DNA from: Candidatus Thorarchaeota archaeon
Lineage (GTDB): Archaea; Asgardarchaeota; Heimdallarchaeia; Hodarchaeales; Hodarchaeaceae
Length of the DNA stretch: 32,000 bases
NCBI GenBank assembly: GCA_048882505.1
Contig: JBHLRO010000030.1
Coordinates: 3,540 to 35,539 of the forward strand
Direction of reading: 5' to 3'
Shown: positions 11,856 to 21,109 of the stretch, in pieces
Layout: every line of letters starts with the position of its first letter
How positions within the stretch are numbered: the stretch's first letter is position 1
Notes under the pieces: model-generated
The model's database searches: none
Told to the model about the DNA's origin: nothing
What the model saw: only the letters and a program-made list of their open reading frames with translations
Program-made: the position numbers and the translations under genes

Positions 11856-11929
11856 GGGCCGGTGGTCTAGCTCGGTATGACGGCTCCCTCACACGGAGCA
11901 GGTCGATGGTTCAAATCCGTCCCGGCCCA
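11856..11929 (+). tRNA. tRNA-Val (anticodon CAC), intronless, CCA not encoded
   Basis: Acceptor GGGCCGG/CCGGCCC plus discriminator A; D arm GTCT...TGAC; anticodon arm GCTCC-CTCACAC-GGAGC; T arm GATGG-TTCAAAT-CCGTC; T-rich tail follows. Confidence 0.97.
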
Positions 11930-11950: not shown

Positions 11951-14188
11951 TCATGTGGAAGATTCAAACGCATCCAAAATATACGAGTATATGGTTTTTT
12001 CTTCTCCGGACGATTTGGCAAACAATCGTCGCACAATTAATTCTGGTGTACTAGCTGCATATTGATAATACACTGGGGTACGATCCACCAAAAGTTCTAA
12101 ATCCTCCGAAAGTCCTTGCGCTTCAATGCCATCAATTCTTAGAGCCTCTTTGCTGTATTTTGCAATTTCTTGAGCGAGATGAGTAACGAAAATCCCCACA
12201 GAATGCGATGATCGTCCCAATAAATCAAGAAACGCGGCGATCACACGAGCGGATGCCCCCGGTTCAGAGATACTCTCCATTTCGTCTGCTAAAACCAAAC
12301 GAGAATGAGGGCTCATGATCATCTGCGAGAGAGTTTGCAGCGTAGTTTCGAAAGCACCTGCATCCATCTGGCCTGCCGCCTTTCTATAGTAATGGAGTTC
12401 CTTGAATCCTCCTAGCACTGCTTTTTTACACGGAATTGGGAGTCCCATCTGACCAAGAATTACCATTACGGCAAGTGAAACGATCAGGGTTGTCTTACCT
12501 CCGCTATTGGCACCAGAGAGCAGAACAATGCGTTCTCCGCTTACTACTCCATCGATCGTTCCAACTTCACCTACTGCATAAGATACTGGCTGAACCTTTG
12601 CTCCACCGCGTAGCTCCTGCTGGGCGAGAAATAGATTACGACCATTTTCAATTAATAATCCAGTTTTCGAGGATTCCCCGAGTTGAGGTAGGATTAATTG
12701 ATATGTTGAAGCGAACTTACCCAGCATAAATAGGTAATCAAGTTCCAACATGTAGTTTAATGCTTGTTTAGCGATGTTTTCATATTGTTTCAGCGCTTTG
12801 GCCAGTCTAGTCTTTAACTCAAAGGATTTGATGGCACGTCGTTGTCGAAGATATGTTGTTAAACGGGAAACAATATCCTCAACAGGATCTACGGGATATC
12901 GAAGTTCTCGTGGAAATATCCCTACAAGGTATTCAATCTCCTCGTCCTGGAGATCAAGGGCTTTGATAAGACTTTCTTCCGCCTTATTTATGATCTCTTC
13001 AACTGCCATGAAGAGTTCATCATCCAAGTATTCTCGAAGATCCGTCCGACCACTGTCGGGAGCGTATTGGGAATCTTCAGATGAAATACCCTTAATGAGG
13101 GCGAGGATTTTTTCTCCTCCGAGTTCAACTGTGGACTGTTGGAGCTTTTTCTCAAGAGCCTCATTAAGTCCGATGAGAATCTCATCGAGCTTGGTTTCAA
13201 ATAGCGTCTCTGCTCGTAATAAACGGGAGTATTCCACATTTAGGTCTGAGGTTGGTTCCCCAGATTCTTCCAAATTCCCCAGTTCTTTTCCCATTTCTCT
13301 TAGCATCTCTAGATCGAGATCCTCAATATAGGCACTTAACGCGGAGGACGGTAGAGTTTGAAGGAGATGGGTGAGACCGGCAATTGATTCAAGCGTTCTT
13401 TTGTTTCTGGCGAAAAAACTTAGGGTTTTTTCCGGAACAATCTGAACCAGATCATTCCGAGCCGATTCGCCGACCGTCACAACATTAGGAAGACTGTCAT
13501 CTAGCAGGACATCAGAACCAATCCAGATAATCTCATCATATCCTTTTGTATAATCGCCTATTCGTTCGATATCATCGATAAGAGTAACCTCACAATGATA
13601 ACCTACATCGGATGTGGTAAGATCTTTAAACAAATCCCTGTCAGGAGTGACAATCAATCTTGATGCAGTGTCAAGGCGCGCCTTTTGCTCTTTAAGAGGA
13701 GTTAGATTGCGCAAGAGAGTGTCATATTCCTTGTAGGAATGAGGGGATGCATGAATTAGTGATGCCAATTGCATTCCCAGATGAGCCACATTTTGACGTT
13801 CCCTGATTTTATCGAGTGCAGAAATAGGGAGAGGGAAGTAGAGATACAATTTTGAGCGAGCATACAGGGTATTTGCAAATTTAGCAATGATATCAATCGT
13901 CTGATTGTAGATACGGATTGCATCCTCGGTTTTCAAGAAATTCCGAACATCTTCTCCTGTTTCTTGAAAATGCAGATTGCGGCACAAGCTTAAAGCGAAT
14001 TTTTCCCCGATTCCTTCAATAGCTGAGATTTCAGCTATCCGAGATTCACGTAATGCTAGTAGAACGGCAGCTTCACTTCCAAATGCGGCTACGAGCCTAT
14101 CTGCCACGGAGGGCCCAATCCCACGAATATCTCGAAGGTTTGTTATACTCAAAGTCTGTTCCTTTCGCTTGGCTATCTTTTTAAACAA
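11951..14188 (-). CDS. MutS5-like protein: N-terminal helix-hairpin-helix pair plus C-terminal MutS ATPase domain V
   Basis: HhH motifs IRGIGPSVA and IEGIGEKFA; Walker A SGANSGGKTT; DAGAFETTL; LADEME; FVTHL. No mismatch-recognition domain I. The start may be TTG 14152. Confidence 0.88.
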   Translation of the reverse strand: MFKKIAKRKEQTLSITNLRDIRGIGPSVADRLVAAFGSEAAVLLALRESRIAEISAIEGIGEKFALSLCRNLHFQETGEDVRNFLKTEDAIRIYNQTIDIIAKFANTLYARSKLYLYFPLPISALDKIRERQNVAHLGMQLASLIHASPHSYKEYDTLLRNLTPLKEQKARLDTASRLIVTPDRDLFKDLTTSDVGYHCEVTLIDDIERIGDYTKGYDEIIWIGSDVLLDDSLPNVVTVGESARNDLVQIVPEKTLSFFARNKRTLESIAGLTHLLQTLPSSALSAYIEDLDLEMLREMGKELGNLEESGEPTSDLNVEYSRLLRAETLFETKLDEILIGLNEALEKKLQQSTVELGGEKILALIKGISSEDSQYAPDSGRTDLREYLDDELFMAVEEIINKAEESLIKALDLQDEEIEYLVGIFPRELRYPVDPVEDIVSRLTTYLRQRRAIKSFELKTRLAKALKQYENIAKQALNYMLELDYLFMLGKFASTYQLILPQLGESSKTGLLIENGRNLFLAQQELRGGAKVQPVSYAVGEVGTIDGVVSGERIVLLSGANSGGKTTLIVSLAVMVILGQMGLPIPCKKAVLGGFKELHYYRKAAGQMDAGAFETTLQTLSQMIMSPHSRLVLADEMESISEPGASARVIAAFLDLLGRSSHSVGIFVTHLAQEIAKYSKEALRIDGIEAQGLSEDLELLVDRTPVYYQYAASTPELIVRRLFAKSSGEEKTIYSYILDAFESST

Positions 14189-14342: not shown

Positions 14343-15305
14343 TTAAATACCAAGTTTGGTTATTCGTTTTGGATTTACCTCACGAATAAAAGTATGTAGC
14401 TCAGAAAACGAACAATGGTCACTATATGGGAAAAAATGGACATCAAGGCGTTTGTGGGCCAATTTTATTGCCCAACCCGTCGGTGATATTCGTAGTGCGT
14501 CCGAAATTTTGGGATGTAAGGAATTATCAATTCCCTGGAGATTTTCAACCATTCTTCTACTCCCAACAAAGACTTGAACATCATCGTTGTCTGTGAAAAT
14601 ATCCCATTCCCCGCCAATCTCCTTAAAAATCTCAATTTTTTGAGGTGGGGCCCAGATTTTTTTTCCAATTGCTTTGCTGATTGTTTGAAATAAAATCTCC
14701 TTGCCTATCTGGTATGCGGACAACCAGACATTTCTTTCAGGGTAATTTCCTGGGGCATGAATTAAGGTAAGGATATCCGAAATAAGCTCCTTGCGAGAAG
14801 GAAAATCATATTTTGGATCTCTTCCATACACGTAGTCCACGTATAAATGATCAGGATTTCTTAATAATTCCATTTCCTCAATGATGACTGAACCAAGACG
14901 AAAATCGCCCGTATATACTTCTTTAGTTCCATCATTATCTTCTATAACAAACATTAAGCTGCCCAGACAATGATTGGCGTCCAGACAGTGAACCTTAAAA
15001 TCGTCAAAATCCAAAGATTGGCTAGGTTTGACGATTAAGCACTTTTCCCGGGGAATTCGATGTAAAGCTTTGATAACCGCCGCTGTTTCTCGTGTACATA
15101 CGACCGTAGAATCTTGAGCGGTAATAATATTCTTTAATCCTCTAGTATGGTCAGAATGGGCATGTGATAGGAAAAAATACCCGGATGAAGGTCTTCTGCG
15201 ATCGTTTCTACCAAAAGGAAATTCATCGAAATAACTTCTGGCGATCGAAGAATACACGTCGATTTCCTCTTGATATCTAGTGGGAAAAACCTCTTGAATG
15301 AACAA
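14343..15305 (-). CDS. SNM1/Apollo/Pso2 (DCLRE1)-like MBL beta-CASP DNA nuclease
   Basis: FFLSHAHSDHTRGL, LDANHCLGSLMF, YTGDFR, LYVD, FPSRKE, YQIGKE, PTGW and PYSDHCSFSELHTFI occur in the same order as in eukaryotic SNM1A/SNM1B. Confidence 0.8.
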   Translation of the reverse strand: MFIQEVFPTRYQEEIDVYSSIARSYFDEFPFGRNDRRRPSSGYFFLSHAHSDHTRGLKNIITAQDSTVVCTRETAAVIKALHRIPREKCLIVKPSQSLDFDDFKVHCLDANHCLGSLMFVIEDNDGTKEVYTGDFRLGSVIIEEMELLRNPDHLYVDYVYGRDPKYDFPSRKELISDILTLIHAPGNYPERNVWLSAYQIGKEILFQTISKAIGKKIWAPPQKIEIFKEIGGEWDIFTDNDDVQVFVGSRRMVENLQGIDNSLHPKISDALRISPTGWAIKLAHKRLDVHFFPYSDHCSFSELHTFIREVNPKRITKLGI

Positions 15306-15444: not shown

Positions 15445-15483
15445 GCGAAAATTTTTAAAGACTCTTAGAACCGCCTTTAATTG
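15445..15483 (+). promoter_or_regulatory. Candidate BRE/TATA elements for the permuted 5S transcript
   Basis: GCGAAAA-TTTTTAAAG at 15445-15460 and TTTAATTG at 15476-15483. Either places the TSS upstream of the 5' arm of the processing stem (15517). Confidence 0.3.
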
Positions 15484-15537
15484 AATCTAAAGGTACAGAA
15501 TCTCACGTTGTATCATGACATCGAGATCCTGCCGGAA

Positions 15538-15686
15538 GTTAAGCCGAGTTTCGTTCTGATCTGTACTGTTATGCGCGAGCTTACGGGAACATCAGAAAAC
15601 GGGTATTGCCCGTTCATAGGGCTCGAGTAACACCCGGTCTCATTCCGAAAGATATGAAGGAATTTCTTCATTCCGGGAACCCGGAA
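15538..15686 (+). rRNA. rrf: 5S rRNA gene, circularly permuted and intron-containing
   Basis: 15538-15603 is the 5S 3' half (GTTAAG CCGAGTT TCG TTCTGAT CTGTAC...GC-GCGA-GC...GGGAAC ATCAGAA AACGGG). 15604-15608 is the linker TATTG. 15609-15649 is the 5' half (CCCGTT CATAG GGCTCGAG TAACA CCCGG TCTCATTCCGAA). 15650-15679 is an intron and 15680-15686 is CCCGGAA. Helices I (CCCGTT/AACGGG), II, III and V (TTCTGAT/ATCAGAA), loop E and the GCGA tetraloop are all recoverable. Confidence 0.93.
15650..15679 (+). other. 30-nt archaeal BHB/BHL-type intron in 5S rRNA loop C
   Basis: Central helix UCCG(15644-47)/CGGG(15674-77), bulges AA|A (15648-50) and AA|C (15678-80), intron hairpin GA-U-AUGAAGG-AAUU-UCUUCAU-UC. 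Removal restores CAUUCCGAACCCGG. Confidence 0.85.
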
Positions 15687-15877
15687 ACAGGATCCTCATG
15701 TCCATTTACTTGGATATTAGGGATGTGGAGAGTATGTTGTTTTTAGAATAGACATCGAAGGTTTTCCCCAAGGACCAATGTCCATATTCGTGATTTTTAA
15801 TGTATATGAATCGATTCTTATCAAAGGAATGAAAAAGCAGATTCAAAATCATTTCAGTTTTGGTTGGGACTGTTATA

Positions 15878-16684
15878 ATGGACTGGAAAACATGGGAAAT
15901 TGAATACCAGTACATCGTTGAAGAGCTAGGGCTGGATCGCAAATCTGACTCCTATAGTGCCCAGCAACTTGAGGAAATCCTACTAAAGCATGCATCGAAT
16001 CGTAAAAAAACGATTTTGGATAAATTAATTGCAATACTTCAATATCCAATAATTATAGCTGGCGCAGGGCCTTCCTTGGAGAGAGATTTTGAACTGTTGA
16101 TGATTACAAAAGGATTACGCAGAGCTTGGGTTATTTCCGCGGATGGGGCCACATCCTTATTGAAGAAGAAGTCCTTAGTCCCTCAGGTTGTGCTAACAGA
16201 TCTTGACGGAGACCCTACTGCGATTGAATGGGCAATGAAGAATGGTTCAATCATTTTAATACACGCTCATGGGGACAACATCCATCTCGTAAAATCATTT
16301 TGTGAGGTTTATGGGCCCAAATTTTCTACCTATCTTGTGTGGGGTACAACACAAACATATCCGGAACATTTATGGAATTTTGGAGGTTTTACAGACGGGG
16401 ATAGGGCTATCTGTTTAGCCCTACATTTTCAATCTCCATTAATAGCTTTAATAGGATTTGATTTTGGGAAAAAAATTGGAAAATACAGTATTCATAATTC
16501 CCCTCTCCAAAAATCTCCTGTCCGTAAAATTAGGAAGTTTGAAATCGCGCTCCGTATTATTTCATCCTCGTATCCTGATCATAAGGGATTTAGATATAAT
16601 CTCACTGAAAAGGGGCAAGAAATCCCAGGTTTTACACGAATTATTGCTAACAGATTTTGGCAAGAGTGGGATCGTCTCGTCTGA
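15878..16684 (+). CDS. mptE: 6-hydroxymethyl-7,8-dihydropterin pyrophosphokinase MptE (DUF115)
   Basis: MDWKTWEIEYQYIVEELG, GAGPSL, ADGA, TDLDG, HAHGDN, NFGGFTDGDRA, GFDF. ATG 15878 is preferred over TTG 15860. Confidence 0.93.
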   Translation: MDWKTWEIEYQYIVEELGLDRKSDSYSAQQLEEILLKHASNRKKTILDKLIAILQYPIIIAGAGPSLERDFELLMITKGLRRAWVISADGATSLLKKKSLVPQVVLTDLDGDPTAIEWAMKNGSIILIHAHGDNIHLVKSFCEVYGPKFSTYLVWGTTQTYPEHLWNFGGFTDGDRAICLALHFQSPLIALIGFDFGKKIGKYSIHNSPLQKSPVRKIRKFEIALRIISSSYPDHKGFRYNLTEKGQEIPGFTRIIANRFWQEWDRLV

Positions 16685-17177
16685 AGGTGTAGCTTGCCAT
16701 ATAGTATTGCGTTTCCCAGATTGTGACTGTTATCGAATAGATCTGTTCCCATGAAGGATGGTTCTGCAAGGTCTCGGCGAGCTTTTCGCTTAAAAGCCGA
16801 GCCAGCGTTTCCGTGGTAACATTTACACAAGGGAGGAGTTTGACCTCTGCTCTTGGGATTGAATAAACTCGATCTGTATAGCTAATTTGGAGATTGAGAT
16901 CCAGTTCTGAAGTCAGAATCTCAATTCTTGGATTATGCGAAGGAAATAGCGTGTAATGATCCCAATCTGATAGTAATTGCTTTATAAGTTCCTCAAGAAA
17001 GATAAAATCTATCAGAATACCTTCGTCTGTTACGTTGCCCGTGATCTCAACTTCTACCCGATAGTTGTGCCCATGTAGCCCTTCAACATATTCGTCCAGT
17101 ACCAGAGCATGACTGGCGCAGAAATGACTTGCATTCCTATTTATTGTCACCGAAAAAGAATGATCACGAGAATTCAA
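16647..17177 (-). CDS. 6-pyruvoyl-tetrahydropterin synthase family, PTPS-III type (Glu in place of catalytic Cys)
   Basis: HFCASH, VEGLHGHNY (E-x2-HGH, no C-x3-HGH), NVTTETLA, IWETQ; T-fold size. Confidence 0.85.
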   Translation of the reverse strand: MNSRDHSFSVTINRNASHFCASHALVLDEYVEGLHGHNYRVEVEITGNVTDEGILIDFIFLEELIKQLLSDWDHYTLFPSHNPRIEILTSELDLNLQISYTDRVYSIPRAEVKLLPCVNVTTETLARLLSEKLAETLQNHPSWEQIYSITVTIWETQYYMASYTFRRDDPTLAKIC

Positions 17178-17218: not shown

Positions 17219-18166
17219 CTAATTGGTCTCTTCACCGTACCAATCGCCGCCCTTCATATCCAGAAAGGCAGAAATCGCTGCAGTAGTACCTTCACCAACA
17301 GCCACAGAAATCTGTCCTTGTCCAGGAGTGATATCTCCACAAGCATAAACACGAGGGACACTCGTTCGCTGTTTATTGTCTACCTTTATGAGTCCATCTT
17401 GAGTTAACTCAACACCAATTTTCTTGGCTAATCCATTTGACGGGATAATCCCAATTGCCACGAAGACCGCTTTAACACGAATAGAGGACTCTTCGCCAGA
17501 TTTGACATTTTTTAGAGCGATGCTTTTCACTCCCCCCATATCTGAACCTTTGATTTGTGTTACCACGGAATCCCAGACCATATTTACCCTGCTATTGTTA
17601 AGAATCTGGTCTTGCAGTTTATCCTCAGCCCGTAATTGATCACGTCGGTGGATTAAGTAGACCTCTCTCACAACATTATCAAGATAAAGCGCTTCTGTAA
17701 CTGCTGAATTTCCGCCCCCAACAACAGCAACCTTTTTTTGTCTGTAAAGGGCCCCATCACAGGTTGCACAGTAGGAAACTCCTTTACCATCAAACTCCTG
17801 TTCACCTGGAACATCGAGATGTCTGTGATAGGTTCCCATAGCTAATATAACCACTTTGCATGTGAAAGTGCCCGAAGTCGTCACTACTTCGTGAGTTTTA
17901 TCCTGAGATATAACATCAGTAACTTCCACGAGTTCCTGGATTTCCGCCCCGAATTTTTCGGCTTGCTTCCGAAGGCGTTCTCCGAATTCCAACCCAGTAA
18001 CATATTCAAATCCAGGATAATTTTCAATAAAAGGAGTTTTCGCTGCGAGTCCTCCCACTGCCTCCTTTTCTAAGACTAGAACCTTCCATCCCATTCGGGA
18101 TCCATAAATCGCAGCTGCCATCCCTGCAGGTCCTGCACCAACGATAATCATATCGTAATCTGTCAT
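17219..18166 (-). CDS. trxB: Thioredoxin-disulfide reductase
   Basis: GAGPAG, GVSYCATCDG, GGGNSA, HRRDQLRA, VYACGD. ATG 18166 is preferred over TTG 18178. Confidence 0.97.
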   Translation of the reverse strand: MTDYDMIIVGAGPAGMAAAIYGSRMGWKVLVLEKEAVGGLAAKTPFIENYPGFEYVTGLEFGERLRKQAEKFGAEIQELVEVTDVISQDKTHEVVTTSGTFTCKVVILAMGTYHRHLDVPGEQEFDGKGVSYCATCDGALYRQKKVAVVGGGNSAVTEALYLDNVVREVYLIHRRDQLRAEDKLQDQILNNSRVNMVWDSVVTQIKGSDMGGVKSIALKNVKSGEESSIRVKAVFVAIGIIPSNGLAKKIGVELTQDGLIKVDNKQRTSVPRVYACGDITPGQGQISVAVGEGTTAAISAFLDMKGGDWYGEETN

Positions 18167-18466
18167 AGATTCAACCAAGCGGAATACGGCTCTATTAGAA
18201 CGCTTTCTACGATGAAAAGGGCTTAATAACTCTTAATTACTCTTCATTTAATCCGTTATTATATATATCATCGCATGATTTAATTAAGCATTTCTTATGT
18301 ATAGAGCAAGAACTAGTGACCGAGTTGAACTAGAGGAATTTGCCAGAGTAGTTCACCTAAAGGTTTTACGATCTGCCTAGGTGAAAAATCGTCATCAAAA
18401 TCAAAAGGCTTTTTCTTTTGGGATCAGATCTAAGTAAAGATACCTCTATGGTATGGTTGTTTAATA

Positions 18467-21109
18467 ATGAAAATAGTCAGGTCATCAACCTCAGAGATCT
18501 CATTTCTAGTTGAATCTATCGATATTCCGATGCAAGAACAGGATTTCATAATAATCACTGAACCTGAGAGAGATGGGGAAGCCCCCCAGAAATATTTGGC
18601 TCAAATTGAAAAGCTGATTCAAAACAAAGAAGGTAGTATCACAGGCAGCGCAGCAATTTTGGGGATTATAAATGCCACAGACCACAGCCTATCTGCATGT
18701 CGATTTCCTATCTCAACAGATTCTCGTTTGGATCCGCCACCTGTCGGGCTTATTTCGAAAATCCTTTCTTCACGGGACGATAGAGGAATATATCTGGGAG
18801 ATGTAATTACCTCTGCAAACCAAAAAGAACCTTTTCTGATCACACCTAATTTTATTGAAAGACATTTGTTATGTGTCGCAACTACGGGAGCAGGGAAGTC
18901 ATATAGCATAGGGGTTCTACTTGAGGAAATTCTACTGAAATTTCCAGAAGCGGCTGTCATCCTGTTCGATATTCATAATGAATATTGGGGTTTAGCTCTT
19001 CCCAATGATGGCATCGAAGTAGAGCATTTAGACCACCAAGACTACTCTCCACGGGGATTTCTAGCCAATATCTTAATCTTCGAAAAAGAATCCCTAGGTC
19101 TGGGAAGAAAGTTCGATCTACCTCGCCTCCGTCGCTTGGTGGATCTAACTGCACCACAAGAAAATTCACTCGCTACGCTCCTGGATTCGCCATTGGTCCT
19201 GGAGGACTTGATTGAGAAAATCAAGCAAAGTGAGGATATGCATAGTGCCACGCGAGAGAATTTAATTTCTAAAATTCGAAAACTTCGTACTCTAAGATTT
19301 TTTGATTCTGAATTACCATTGGATGCCCTAGTTCGATCCGGACAGGTGTCATTGGTACGTTTGGATCAATTTGTGGATGAACGGAACAGGGGTATTGTGG
19401 TTAATGAGATCCTTACCCAGCTGTTTGACCAGAAGATTCGTGGAGAACTTGACACCAAAGAAGTTATTATCGTTTGCGAAGAAGCACATCGTTTTTCCTC
19501 GGAAAATGATATTTTAGCTAGAATCTCACGTGAAGGCCGTAAGTTTGGAATCTATACCGTTCTTGTCTCCCAGCGACCAGGGGATCTTCCTGATGATATC
19601 ATCGCCAACATGAACACGCTCATAGCACTTCGTGTTCGTTCAGATAAGGATCTGACGAAAATCCGACTGATGGAGGGAATTCGGGCTGAAACGGTAGCGT
19701 TACTTCCACACTTGTCTCGCGGAGAAGCGTTAATTGTCGGGCTTCGACAAGGTACTTATCGCCCAATTAAGGTTTTAGTTCGCCCACGTATGAGTAAACA
19801 TATCGACCCTCAAATAGATCATTTGCCTGATTCAATTCCTCGATATTCACCTCACAGACAGATTGCCATTAGTCCTCCTGTTACATCAGTGCCCGAGGAG
19901 ATTAAACCACCGCCCAGCTATTCCCCACCACTTATCGATGCCATCCAAGCTTTTGATTCCAAAGATTTGAGTAATCTTTTAGCGTGCGAACACGTTTTCA
20001 TCCTACATAAGCGTACTGGACTTTGTCTCTTTGATCTTAGTGTGAGCATGCTAGAAATTGATTCGCAACTCGTCTCGGGATTTTTAACAGCTATTTCAGG
20101 GTTTTTTCAGGAACTAAAGACCCAGAGTTCTGTAAAAGAAAGGCTCATTGTCCGAACTTTTGCTGAAGATATCGGCGATCGTGCTTTCGAGATAGTACAA
20201 TGTGAGGGAGAATATACGGTAACTGCTGTCATCCTTGATCGCGCCCTCAAATATCTAAACAAGTTCAAACAACGAATAAGGGATTTTGTATATGTTTTTG
20301 AAAACACATTTCGGTCTCAGCTAAATTCAGCGAGTACCAGTGGTGTTATCATACACGAGGATTTTGCCATGGCCATAAAGCTTCTCGACTACTTCATGGG
20401 CTTTTCCTTGCTCATTCCCCTGCGATTAGATCCTTTTCCACCAGAAATGGAATTTTCTGATCTCTTAGGAATTATTGATTCTCAAATGGAAAGAGTAGCT
20501 AAATCTGAGGGTCTCTTTGCTGAGGAAATCGTCAATCAGTGTCTATTGGACTCTGAATATAATCTAAGGGAAATTATCCAAGCTGTCCTCCTTTTCTTAC
20601 AGAAAGGAATCTTGGTTCTGCAGGATAAAACACGAACATTACCTCCCTTTACAGAGACTTCTAGACCCGGAGATCTCATTGAATCCTCTCCAATCGAGGA
20701 TATCAAGGTAAAGGAGGAACCTCTTCTCGAAAAGATGTCCGTTATCCCTCCTAAACTCTCTGAGGAAAACGAAACACTCCACATCGAGTGGTTGCCTGCT
20801 GTTATTGAAAAAATCACGCCAACTGCTCTACCAAATGCCTTGGTACCTGATATTTTAGAAAGAGATCTCATTTTTGAATCGGATTTAAGGATAAAAACGC
20901 ATTCCACAAGAGTAGAAACCCTTTCAAAAACTGATCTCGATAAGTGGGCTCGAATTATGGACACGAATGGCTTTATTTTGACTCAACAGAATGGAAATCC
21001 TCTTAGCGGGATAAAACTGATATTTGAATCAGAAGCGACGAAACTTGTCTGTTCGCTCGCAAAACTGAAGGACGGCGATTATATACTCATTCTTGGAGAA
21101 ATACTATGA
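18467..21109 (+). CDS. HerA-like (DUF87) ATPase fused to a longin-like domain, a winged helix and a further C-terminal domain
   Basis: HAS-barrel-like N-terminus; RHLLCVATTGAGKS; FDIHNEY; VCEEAHRF; REGRKFG; VSQRP; Pro-rich linker. Then HVFILHKRTGLCLF...DSQLVSGFLTAISGFFQEL (Asgard longin-like) and EEIVNQC...IIQAVLLFLQKGILV (wHTH). Confidence 0.82.
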   Translation: MKIVRSSTSEISFLVESIDIPMQEQDFIIITEPERDGEAPQKYLAQIEKLIQNKEGSITGSAAILGIINATDHSLSACRFPISTDSRLDPPPVGLISKILSSRDDRGIYLGDVITSANQKEPFLITPNFIERHLLCVATTGAGKSYSIGVLLEEILLKFPEAAVILFDIHNEYWGLALPNDGIEVEHLDHQDYSPRGFLANILIFEKESLGLGRKFDLPRLRRLVDLTAPQENSLATLLDSPLVLEDLIEKIKQSEDMHSATRENLISKIRKLRTLRFFDSELPLDALVRSGQVSLVRLDQFVDERNRGIVVNEILTQLFDQKIRGELDTKEVIIVCEEAHRFSSENDILARISREGRKFGIYTVLVSQRPGDLPDDIIANMNTLIALRVRSDKDLTKIRLMEGIRAETVALLPHLSRGEALIVGLRQGTYRPIKVLVRPRMSKHIDPQIDHLPDSIPRYSPHRQIAISPPVTSVPEEIKPPPSYSPPLIDAIQAFDSKDLSNLLACEHVFILHKRTGLCLFDLSVSMLEIDSQLVSGFLTAISGFFQELKTQSSVKERLIVRTFAEDIGDRAFEIVQCEGEYTVTAVILDRALKYLNKFKQRIRDFVYVFENTFRSQLNSASTSGVIIHEDFAMAIKLLDYFMGFSLLIPLRLDPFPPEMEFSDLLGIIDSQMERVAKSEGLFAEEIVNQCLLDSEYNLREIIQAVLLFLQKGILVLQDKTRTLPPFTETSRPGDLIESSPIEDIKVKEEPLLEKMSVIPPKLSEENETLHIEWLPAVIEKITPTALPNALVPDILERDLIFESDLRIKTHSTRVETLSKTDLDKWARIMDTNGFILTQQNGNPLSGIKLIFESEATKLVCSLAKLKDGDYILILGEIL

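What the first reader, a model, noticed from the sequence alone, without database searches (positions are those of the whole stretch)
15517..15702. Terminal BHB-like motif whose predicted cut sites rejoin exactly to the conserved 5S sequence
Seen in sequence: the leader 15517-15531 and trailer 15688-15702 form a 14-bp stem with two single-nt bulges. It stacks on a 4-bp helix CCGG(15532-35)/CCGG(15681-84), with 3-nt bulges 3' of the helix on each strand (AAG 15536-38; AAA 15685-87). The inner side is relaxed (U15539 faces C15680). Established: the archaeal splicing endonuclease cuts after the second bulge nucleotide and RtcB ligates the ends. Applying that rule gives ends at G15538 and A15686, and joining them yields GAACCCGGAA|GUUAAG, the conserved 5S helix III/loop B sequence. 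This exact match is strong evidence that the permutation is a functional design and not a rearrangement scar.
Basis: partly seen in the sequence, partly recalled or inferred. Interest (0 to 1): 0.88.

Follow-up and report, generated by a model that had tools for sequence, protein, structure and literature searches.

The report
Permuted 5S rRNA gene with splice-type ends
This Asgard (Hodarchaeales-type) archaeon encodes its only 5S ribosomal RNA with the two halves swapped, and a conserved tRNA-splicing-type motif at the new ends (plus a 30-base intron) would let the cell cut and rejoin it into a normal 5S sequence, probably as a closed ring, which explains why 5S genes seemed to be missing from these genomes.

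Summary
Window 15517-15702 is the genome's only 5S-like locus and it is circularly permuted. The 3' part (15538-15607) precedes the 5' part (15608-15649, 15680-15686), and helix I is closed by a short loop. Leader and trailer form a 14-bp stem stacked on CCGG/CCGG, with bulges AAG and AAA. That is a relaxed bulge-helix-bulge (BHB).

Cutting after the second bulge base and ligating gives CCCGGAA|GUUAAG, the canonical helix III sequence. The stem and central helix covary strongly in 20 close and 62 phylum-wide orthologs. A custom model finds the permuted gene in 77 of 83 genomes of the class and in many other Asgard families. Canonical 5S occurs almost only where the permuted form is not found.

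The genome encodes two EndA paralogs and RtcB, and four of its tRNA introns obey the same cutting geometry. This copy also carries a 30-nt insert (15650-15679) in loop C with its own BHB; removing it restores the sequence of the intron-less relatives.

No RNA data could be obtained, so cleavage, ligation and a circular mature form remain inferred. I found no paper describing this. The scan has noted the same phenomenon before on other genomes.

The parts
15450..15470 (+). Promoter-like element (TATA-like TTTTTAAAG followed by ACTCTTAGAA). Predicted transcription start is about 15480-15488.
   Evidence: The motif TTTAAAG(A/G)CTCTTGAA is conserved about 75-85 nt upstream of the central helix in the genus, and a CTTTAAA box occurs in genus g5. 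Promoter function is inferred.
15517..15531 (+). Leader strand of the outer (leader-trailer) stem.
   Evidence: It forms 14 bp with 15688-15702. Covariation is shown.
15532..15535 (+). CCGG, the 5' strand of the central 4-bp helix of the terminal BHB.
   Evidence: It pairs with 15681-84. 91-96% of cells are paired in orthologs, and G021 shows a compensatory CUGG/CCAG.
15536..15538 (+). Bulge AAG. The predicted cut is at 15537|15538, and G15538 becomes the 5' end.
   Evidence: Direct reading. The geometry was calibrated on this genome's tRNA introns.
15538..15607 (+). 3' part of 5S: loop B (GUUAAG), 3' strand of helix II, helix V, loop E, helix IV, 3' strand of helix I and the cap loop.
   Evidence: Rfam partial match. 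blastn/nhmmer map positions 44-119 of the re-ordered, spliced 5S sequence here. Helices covary.
15598..15614 (+). Helix I (7 bp) closed by the loop AUU 15605-07, which joins the native 3' and 5' ends.
   Evidence: Folds. Helix I pairs covary and 100% of cells are paired. Most other lineages have UNCG-type caps.
15608..15649 (+). 5' part of 5S: 5' strand of helix I, loop A, 5' strand of helix II, 5' strand of helix III (CCGG 15634-37), and loop C up to CCGAA.
   Evidence: Positions 1-42 of the re-ordered 5S sequence map here. Colinear alignment with canonical Asgard 5S.
15650..15679 (+). 30-nt insert in loop C, read as a BHB mini-intron. Central helix is UCCG 15644-47 with CGGG 15674-77, bulges are AAA 15648-50 and AAC 15678-80, and an inner stem is formed by 15651-60 with 15665-73.
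   Evidence: It is absent from 19 same-genus orthologs and present in G016. All pairs were verified. Removal restores CAUUCCGAA|CCCGG. Shuffles reach this geometry in 0.2-1.3% of trials. It is present without indels in three independent DNA data sets.
15680..15686 (+). Last exon piece CCCGGAA: end of loop C, 3' strand of helix III and the AA bulge. A15686 is the predicted 3' end.
   Evidence: Direct reading. Helix III is 100% paired in orthologs.
15681..15684 (+). CCGG, the 3' strand of the terminal BHB helix. The same bases form helix III in the mature fold.
   Evidence: G021 changes all three partners together (leader CUGG, helix III CUGG, trailer CCAG).
15685..15687 (+). Bulge AAA. The predicted cut is at 15686|15687.
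   Evidence: Direct reading. AAA is invariant in 20 orthologs.
15688..15702 (+). Trailer strand of the outer stem.
15737..15744 (+). T-run (TTGTTTTT), a likely archaeal terminator.
   Evidence: T-runs lie 30-50 nt after the trailer in the orthologs, and the run is kept in variant strains. Terminator function is inferred.

Best explanation
This is the organism's functional 5S rRNA gene in circularly permuted form. The order is leader, loop B to the 3' strand of helix I, a short cap loop, the 5' strand of helix I to loop C, the 3' strand of helix III, then trailer. It is transcribed on its own from a TATA-like promoter. In the precursor, leader and trailer pair into a relaxed bulge-helix-bulge: a long outer stem, the 4-bp helix CCGG/CCGG, and bulges AAG and AAA. 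The archaeal splicing endonuclease, here probably a heteromer of two EndA paralogs, cuts at 15537|15538 and 15686|15687. RtcB joins A15686 to G15538. The trailer CCGG then pairs with CCGG 15634-37 and rebuilds helix III with its conserved AA bulge. A second BHB removes the 30-nt insert 15650-15679 from loop C. The end product is a 119-nt covalently closed 5S rRNA. Shown here: the gene identity, the permutation, both motifs, their conservation and covariation, the presence of the enzymes, and the phyletic pattern. Inferred: cleavage by EndA (about 0.85), ligation (about 0.8), intron removal (about 0.7), and that the ring itself is the ribosomal form (about 0.5-0.55).
For: It is the only 5S-like locus in the genome, with its halves in swapped order. 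After re-ordering and splicing it aligns colinearly with canonical Asgard 5S at 53-65% identity, with an identical junction CCCGGAAGUUAAGCC. All 5S helices and the leader-trailer BHB covary. The permuted gene is found in 77 of 83 genomes of the class and 14 of 14 high-quality ones. It is also found in many other families of the phylum. Canonical 5S is found almost only in families without it (f11 26/26, f17 17/19). The canonical hits within the class are bacterial contamination, a spurious overlap, or a foreign contig. G021 changes the leader helix strand, the helix III strand and the trailer strand together. G022 has bulge AGG, and only the standard register gives the conserved AA bulge. EndA is present as two paralogs, one apparently lacking the catalytic His, and RtcB is present. 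The heteromeric EndA type accepts relaxed BHBs (PMC7714728). Four canonical tRNA introns of this genome show 4 of 4 central-helix pairs under the same cut rule. The intron BHB restores the loop C sequence seen in relatives. A fold holding both BHBs lies only 5 kcal/mol above the MFE. Independent DNA assemblies carry the same arrangement, and strain differences are structure-neutral. There is a precedent: the permuted SRP RNA of Thermoproteus is cut at a leader-trailer BHB and is circular (PMC4731332). Wu et al. 2022 could not predict 5S genes in closed Heimdall-group genomes.
Against: There is no RNA evidence of any kind. The inner flank of the terminal BHB is weak (relaxed motif). In 7 of 20 close orthologs the leader reads CCGA, which gives an A.C mismatch in the 4-bp helix. 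CCGG is self-complementary and occurs three times, and the MFE pairs the leader CCGG with the helix III strand instead. The local MFE of 15636-88 does not show the intron BHB. The A-rich bulges make the product insensitive to the cutting register, so the exact junction is weaker evidence for EndA geometry than it looks. Loop C is a known site of retained 5S expansion segments in some bacteria (PMC7812874).
Confidence: 0.78

Rival explanations
1. The RNA is cut and ligated as above, but the ring is only an intermediate. A further nuclease opens the helix I cap and gives a linear 5S with conventional ends, as in the permuted tRNA genes of Cyanidioschyzon.
For: Permuted tRNAs mature this way (from memory; cited in PMC4267664). 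Circular pre-16S and pre-23S rRNAs are usually re-linearised.
Against: The cap is only 3-5 nt and is a UNCG-type tetraloop in most lineages. That is a stabilising cap with no conserved processing signal. Helix I is shortened to 6-7 bp, as if the loop replaces the terminal pairs.
Confidence: 0.15
2. The BHB only trims the precursor. The ends at the helix III bulge stay unligated, and the ribosome carries a linear, permuted (nicked) 5S held together by base pairing.
For: Permuted linear 5S rRNAs exist in some organelles (PMC4267664). The helix III bulge is among the least obstructed sites of 5S in the ribosome (PMC7812874).
Against: RtcB is present, and archaeal EndA products with adjacent ends, such as introns, pre-rRNAs and SRP RNA, are ligated as a rule. 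Only two pairs (C15633-G15538 and A15632-U15539) would hold the 5' end.
Confidence: 0.1
3. The 30-nt insert 15650-15679 is not an intron. It stays in the mature RNA as an expansion segment of loop C.
For: Loop C hosts expansion segments in several bacterial 5S rRNAs, and insertions cannot be classed without RNA data (PMC7812874). The insert folds as a self-contained hairpin.
Against: It interrupts the conserved CCGAA|C motif, which the described expansion segments avoid. It carries a 4-bp helix and two 3-nt bulges placed so that standard cuts restore the relatives' sequence exactly; 0.2% of shuffles do so.
Confidence: 0.25
4. The locus is a rearranged pseudogene, and the real 5S gene lies in unassembled sequence.
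For: The genome is a draft (83 contigs, 94.5% complete), and rRNA genes often fail to assemble.
Against: The same permuted gene, with covariation in every helix, is present in 77 of 83 genomes of the class, including five single-contig genomes that have no canonical 5S. A promoter-like box and a T-run are conserved.
Confidence: 0.01

Closest known systems
Permuted, circular SRP RNA of Thermoproteus tenax and T. uzoniensis (Plagens et al. 2015, eLife; PMC4731332)
   Same: A universal structured RNA gene seemed to be 'missing'. The halves are swapped, the leader and trailer fold into a BHB, and cutting and ligation by the tRNA-splicing machinery restore a functional element. The gene has its own TATA promoter.
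   Different: The RNA here is 5S rRNA, a ribosome component. The trait spans a whole class and much of a phylum rather than two species. This copy carries an extra BHB intron. Circularity and EndA cleavage are shown for SRP RNA and are not shown here.
Circularly permuted tRNA genes (Cyanidioschyzon merolae and some archaea; Soma et al. 2007, from memory, cited in PMC4267664)
   Same: The 3' half lies upstream of the 5' half, there is a BHB at the precursor ends, and a circular RNA is formed by the splicing machinery.
   Different: In tRNAs the ring is an intermediate that RNase P and tRNase Z reopen at a linker. Here the linker is a 3-5-nt cap loop with no such signals.
Circular pre-16S/23S rRNAs, circular 23S in ribosomes, and permuted 23S of Pyrococcus and Thermococcus (PMC12918454, PMC7758197, bioRxiv 10.64898/2026.03.23.713588)
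   Same: BHBs in leader-trailer processing stems of rRNA are cut by EndA and the ends are ligated. A circular rRNA can be the form found in ribosomes.
   Different: Those genes are colinear, and any permutation arises at the RNA level. PMC12918454 states that 5S is not processed this way. Here the permutation is in the gene, and ligation is needed to build a helix.
Permuted organellar 5S rRNAs (Valach et al. 2014, PMC4267664)
   Same: 5S rRNA genes with swapped halves that escape standard models.
   Different: They are organellar, no BHB or splicing endonuclease is involved, and the RNAs are described as linear permuted molecules.
Archaeal BHB introns in tRNA and 16S/23S rRNA genes (PMC4496867, PMC7714728)
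   Same: The 30-nt insert has the defining 4-bp helix and two 3-nt bulges, and its removal restores a conserved sequence.
   Different: The host gene is 5S rRNA. My searches found no paper describing a BHB intron in a 5S gene.

Membership tests
5S rRNA (Rfam RF00001) | Helices I-V supported by covariation | tested here: met
   93-97% of cells are paired. Helices I, II, IV and V have pairs changed on both sides, and helix III is 100% paired.
5S rRNA (Rfam RF00001) | Conserved motifs: loop C CCGAAC, helix III/loop B GGAAGUUAAG, loop E GUAC...GGGAA | tested here: met
   All are present. Two of them become contiguous only after the predicted joins.
5S rRNA (Rfam RF00001) | Colinear gene order that reaches the family's gathering score | tested here: not met
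   The score is 20.3 bits against a cut-off of 38. The halves map in swapped order. This is a permuted gene, not a standard member at the DNA level.
5S rRNA (Rfam RF00001) | Incorporated into the 50S subunit | not testable with these tools
   No RNA or ribosome data were available.
Substrates of the archaeal splicing endonuclease (BHB motif) | Central 4-bp helix | tested here: met
   CCGG 15532-35 with CCGG 15681-84. 91-96% of cells are paired in orthologs, with compensatory changes.
Substrates of the archaeal splicing endonuclease (BHB motif) | Two 3-nt bulges on opposite strands, each 3' of the helix strand | tested here: met
   AAG 15536-38 and AAA 15685-87.
Substrates of the archaeal splicing endonuclease (BHB motif) | Flanking helices on both sides (strict hBHBh') | tested here: inconclusive
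   The outer helix has 14 bp. The inner side is either unpaired or a 3-bp GUU/AAC helix with a 2-nt bulge. Family f3 has a clearer inner helix. The motif fits the relaxed class.
Substrates of the archaeal splicing endonuclease (BHB motif) | Enzymes encoded in the genome, and the same geometry at bona fide substrates | tested here: met
   Two EndA paralogs and RtcB are present. Four tRNA introns show 4 of 4 helix pairs with a cut after bulge base 2.
Substrates of the archaeal splicing endonuclease (BHB motif) | Cleavage by EndA at the predicted phosphates | not testable with these tools
   This needs an in vitro assay or RNA end mapping.
Permuted RNA genes matured through a circular RNA | 3' half upstream of 5' half, with native ends joined by a short linker | tested here: met
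   The cap loop is at 15605-07.
Permuted RNA genes matured through a circular RNA | Junction-spanning RNA molecules | not testable with these tools
   No RNA run was listed.
Archaeal BHB intron (for the insert 15650-15679) | A 4-bp helix and two 3-nt bulges placed so that excision restores the conserved exon sequence | tested here: met
   UCCG/CGGG with bulges AAA and AAC. The product CAUUCCGAA|CCCGG equals the 19 intron-less orthologs.
5S expansion segment (for the insert 15650-15679) | The insertion does not interrupt conserved motifs and is retained in mature RNA | tested here: not met
   It splits CCGAA|C. Retention itself could not be tested.

The most novel reading that the evidence does not exclude
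The ribosomes of this organism carry a covalently closed, 119-nt circular 5S rRNA, made from a permuted gene by two splicing-endonuclease/RtcB events. The same would hold for every Heimdall-group family with more than one sampled genome and for many other Asgard families. The shared breakpoint sits at the helix III bulge. That is the site where a foreign archaeal contig carries an ordinary BHB intron in a colinear 5S gene, which suggests the permutation arose from an intron-bearing ancestor. Because eukaryotes have a colinear linear 5S, the permutation would be a rare genomic change bearing on where eukaryotes branch relative to Heimdallarchaeia.
Probability: 0.45. Interest if true: 0.92.

Novelty: new variant of a known kind. 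Interest (0 to 1): 0.82.

Why it matters
5S rRNA is a universal ribosome component, and archaeal reviews treat it as linear, colinear and not circularised. A gene that can only fold after cut-and-join would be the first cellular 5S of this kind.

It explains the 'missing' 5S genes of closed Heimdall-group genomes (PMC8813620) and shows that standard annotation misses them.

It extends the moonlighting of the tRNA-splicing machinery from SRP RNA to the ribosome. It also gives a simple, testable prediction: junction reads 15686>15538 and 15649>15680.

Its distribution is a discrete character. The permuted form is found in 77 of 83 sampled Heimdall-group genomes, covering every family except one represented by a single genome, and in many other Asgard families. 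Canonical 5S is found in a few others. This could inform Asgard phylogeny and the placement of eukaryotes.

This particular copy adds what appears to be the first BHB intron seen in a 5S gene of this genus.

Tried and rejected
- **RNA evidence.** No RNA holder was listed for the locus, so expression, ends and junctions could not be examined.
- **Rfam.** At gathering threshold Rfam finds no 5S in the window.
- **Local fold.** The local MFE of 15636-15688 prefers a CCGGG/CCCGG hairpin over the intron BHB. This is not decisive, because those bases are engaged by the terminal BHB in the precursor.
- **Collection scan.** The genome contigs pattern scan returned about 25 bacterial hits and 3 archaeal hits (L031, L071, L072) that are chance matches in coding sequence.
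- **Canonical 5S within the class.** The hits in G023:C798 and G005:C310 lie next to bacterial 23S and are contamination. G067:C90 is a spurious overlap with a permuted copy. I considered G048:C117 as a second, colinear 5S type of the class. I rejected this because its RNA polymerase B fragment is only 43-48% identical to every Asgard genome sampled and the gene is split, so the contig is foreign.
- **ARAGORN.** Its intron calls are noisy. Only the four clean anticodon-loop introns were used for calibration.
- **'Mutually exclusive CCGG switch'.** Other first-reader notes proposed this. A single structure holding both BHBs is feasible at -58.6 against -63.6 kcal/mol, so exclusivity is not required.
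- **Mobile mini-intron.** The insert sequence is unique in the genome, so a repeated mobile element is not supported.
- **Literature.** Searches for circular or permuted archaeal 5S, for an Asgard ribosome structure, and for 5S BHB introns found nothing relevant. One paper reading failed on a term that was too short.

Full report
**The observation.** The sequence at 15517-15702 is as described. A script confirmed every pair. There are 14 standard pairs between 15517-31 and 15688-15702, with C15522 and C15694 bulged. The 4-bp helix CCGG 15532-35 / CCGG 15681-84 follows. AAG 15536-38 and AAA 15685-87 lie 3' of that helix on the two strands. The free fold of 15505-15715 contains the outer stem, but its energy is only modestly better than shuffles (z = -2.0). 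The case therefore rests on comparison with orthologs, not on folding energy.

**What the locus is.**
- Rfam finds no 5S at gathering threshold in the window or in the whole 4.3-Mb, 94.5% complete genome. There is only a 20-bit partial match at this place.
- blastn and nhmmer with canonical Asgard 5S sequences hit this locus alone. Positions 44-119 map to 15532-15607 and positions 1-42 map directly after, at 15608-15649. The gene is therefore circularly permuted.
- Its order is loop B, the 3' strand of helix II, helix V, loop E, helix IV and the 3' strand of helix I. A 3-nt cap loop (15605-07) follows. Then come the 5' strand of helix I, the 5' strand of helix II, the 5' strand of helix III and loop C. 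The 3' strand of helix III (CCGG 15681-84) and AA come last.
- Re-ordered and spliced, the 119-nt sequence aligns colinearly with canonical 5S of other Asgard families at 53-65% identity. The junction region CCCGGAAGUUAAGCC is identical to theirs.

**Orthologs and covariation.**
- The same arrangement occurs in 19 of 21 genomes of the genus and in a second family.
- A collection-wide pattern scan named the true holders as MAGs labelled Hodarchaeota, Heimdallarchaeota or Promethearchaeota. They include the closed genomes CP070665, CP070695 and CP070760 and B3_Heim. All other hits were chance matches.
- On a MAFFT alignment of 20 orthologs, 93% of cells pair in the precursor structure. Slid controls give 33-49%, and 0 of 500 shuffles reach the observed values. 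Eight of 11 outer-stem pairs change on both sides.
- The mature structure, including helix III across the predicted junction, is 97% paired.
- G021 is the most telling case. The trailer CCGG has become CCAG, and both of its partners, the leader strand and the helix III strand, have become CUGG. This is what one expects if the trailer strand pairs first with the leader and later with helix III.
- On 62 sequences from across the phylum, all 11 outer pairs and all 4 central pairs covary. That alignment is fitted to the model, which favours the structure.

**Distribution.**
- A covariance model of the precursor (R1) gives full-length matches in 77 of 83 genomes of the class. That covers every family with more than one genome and 14 of 14 high-quality genomes, including five single-contig genomes.
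- RF00001 passes its cut-off in only 4 of the 83. Two of these lie beside bacterial 23S on short contigs and are contamination. One is a spurious overlap with a permuted copy. One is on a foreign contig (see 'A related observation' below).
- In a sample of 151 genomes of the phylum, strong permuted matches occur in at least 14 further families. Canonical 5S is found in f11 (26/26), f17 (17/19), f20, f15, f27 and f28. The two states are almost mutually exclusive.
- All lineages inspected share the same breakpoint at the AA bulge of helix III. Most close helix I with a UNCG-type tetraloop.
- Wu et al. [quoted passage not shown] The permutation explains this.

**Mechanism.**
- The motif has the defining features of a BHB: a 4-bp helix flanked by two 3-nt bulges (PMC7714728; PMC4731332). 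The outer helix is long and the inner flank is weak, so it belongs to the relaxed class.
- The genome encodes two divergent EndA paralogs, each with N- and C-terminal domains. One keeps the Tyr...His spacing of the catalytic site and the other has lost the His. This suggests a catalytic plus structural heteromer, the type reported to accept relaxed motifs. RtcB is also present.
- As an internal calibration, four clean anticodon-loop tRNA introns of this genome have exon borders fixed by tRNA structure. All four show 4 of 4 central-helix pairs when the cut is placed after the second bulge base.
- Applied here, the rule gives ends at G15538 and A15686 and the junction CCCGGAA|GUUAAG.
The exact match therefore does not prove the register.
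- G022 has bulge AGG. There only the standard register gives the universally conserved AA bulge.

**The insert.**
- This copy, and that of the 99%-identical G016, has 30 extra bases (15650-15679) inside the loop C motif CCGAA|C. The other 19 genus members lack them.
- The insert carries its own BHB. UCCG 15644-47 pairs with CGGG 15674-77. The bulges are AAA 15648-50 and AAC 15678-80. An inner stem runs 15651-60 with 15665-73 and has an AAUU loop.
- Standard cuts remove exactly these 30 bases and restore CAUUCCGAA|CCCGG.
- Only 1.3% of shuffled inserts form the helix in register, and only 0.2% form the helix plus two inner pairs.
- Both BHBs fit into one structure 5 kcal/mol above the MFE.
- The arrangement is present without indels in contigs from three studies. 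A diverged strain differs by T15664A in the intron loop and by two U-to-C changes in helix II. One turns a G.U pair into G-C and the other lies at a bulged base.
- The rival reading is a retained expansion segment. Loop C is a known site for these in bacteria (PMC7812874). However, those segments avoid conserved motifs, and this insert splits one.

**What is not shown.** No RNA run could be listed. Cleavage, ligation, intron removal and the final topology are therefore inferences.
- The ring could be an intermediate that is later reopened.
- The ends could stay unligated.
- The very short, often UNCG cap and the shortened helix I favour a ring as the end product. I put this at about one half.

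**Comparison with known systems.** The closest precedent is the permuted SRP RNA of Thermoproteus. There the leader-trailer BHB, EndA cleavage and circular mature RNA were demonstrated. Permuted tRNA genes, circular pre-rRNAs, circular 23S, and permuted organellar 5S share parts of the logic. I found no paper on a permuted or circular archaeal 5S, or on a BHB intron in a 5S gene, in the library searched. Subscription-only literature was not covered. The scan itself has noted the same phenomenon on other genomes (63 notes in at least 58 genomes) and on this locus. I reached the intron reading before seeing those notes.

**A related observation.** A contig binned with G048 carries a colinear 5S gene with a 22-23-nt BHB insert. 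Its central helix is CACG/CGUG, its bulges are GAA and AAA, and it has a 5-bp inner stem. It sits exactly at the helix III bulge where the Asgard genes are permuted. The contig is foreign to Asgard: it has a split RNA polymerase B gene that is only 43-48% identical to every Asgard genome sampled. It nevertheless shows that an intron at this site exists in nature. This fits the idea, voiced for SRP RNA, that permuted genes descend from intron-bearing ones.

**Verdict.** The gene is a genuine, conserved, permuted 5S rRNA gene whose BHB ends are positioned to rebuild helix III. This copy also has a probable BHB intron. It is a new variant of a known kind and of high interest. RNA-level proof is outstanding.

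Noticed in passing
L137:1501-1638 (- strand) = G048:C117:8277-8414: A colinear 5S gene (48 bits) carries a 22-23-nt BHB-type insert exactly at the helix III bulge where the Asgard genes are permuted. It lies next to an intron-bearing tRNA. The contig is foreign to Asgard (split rpoB, 43-48% identity to every sampled Asgard genome).
   Followed up: partly
L115:104-253 and 261-410 (G023:C510): Two permuted 5S copies lie in tandem, 7 nt apart, with different leader-trailer stems. Tandem copies are the arrangement from which a permutation can arise.
   Followed up: no
L154:63-245 (G197) and L155:66-243 (G168), family f14: These permuted 5S genes carry extra insertions, about 28 nt in the helix I cap and about 29 nt in helix IV. 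They could be further introns or expansion segments.
   Followed up: no
L009:1154-1220 (G008:C16:11203-11363): A degenerate partial second copy of the permuted 5S (33 bits) lies about 350 nt upstream of the intact gene.
   Followed up: no
window 15640-15647 and 15668-15675: The 8-nt direct repeat UCAUUCCG means the 3' end of the insert nearly duplicates the exon end before it. The intron may have arisen by local duplication.
   Followed up: no
window 15732 onward: Contigs from two other samples (X3, X4) diverge from the window right after 15732 but keep a T-run. This is strain-level variation downstream of the gene.
   Followed up: no
L135 and L136 (G023:C798, G005:C310): Short contigs carrying bacterial 23S plus 5S are binned into two Heimdall-group MAGs. 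This is contamination that could be mistaken for the archaeon's 5S.
   Followed up: yes
window 11856-11929; 11951-14188(-); 14343-15305(-); 15860-16684; 16647-17177(-); 17219-18178(-); 18467-21109: The neighbours are unrelated housekeeping genes: tRNA-Val(CAC), a MutS-domain protein with HhH motifs, a metallo-beta-lactamase/DRMBL nuclease, an MptE-like kinase, a PTPS-like protein, a thioredoxin-reductase-like flavoprotein and a HerA-type ATPase. The 5S gene stands alone, away from 16S and 23S.
   Followed up: partly
G000 whole genome: ARAGORN flags introns in 23 of 39 tRNA genes. Many of these calls are unreliable, but the result is consistent with heavy use of the splicing machinery in this genome.
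   Followed up: partly
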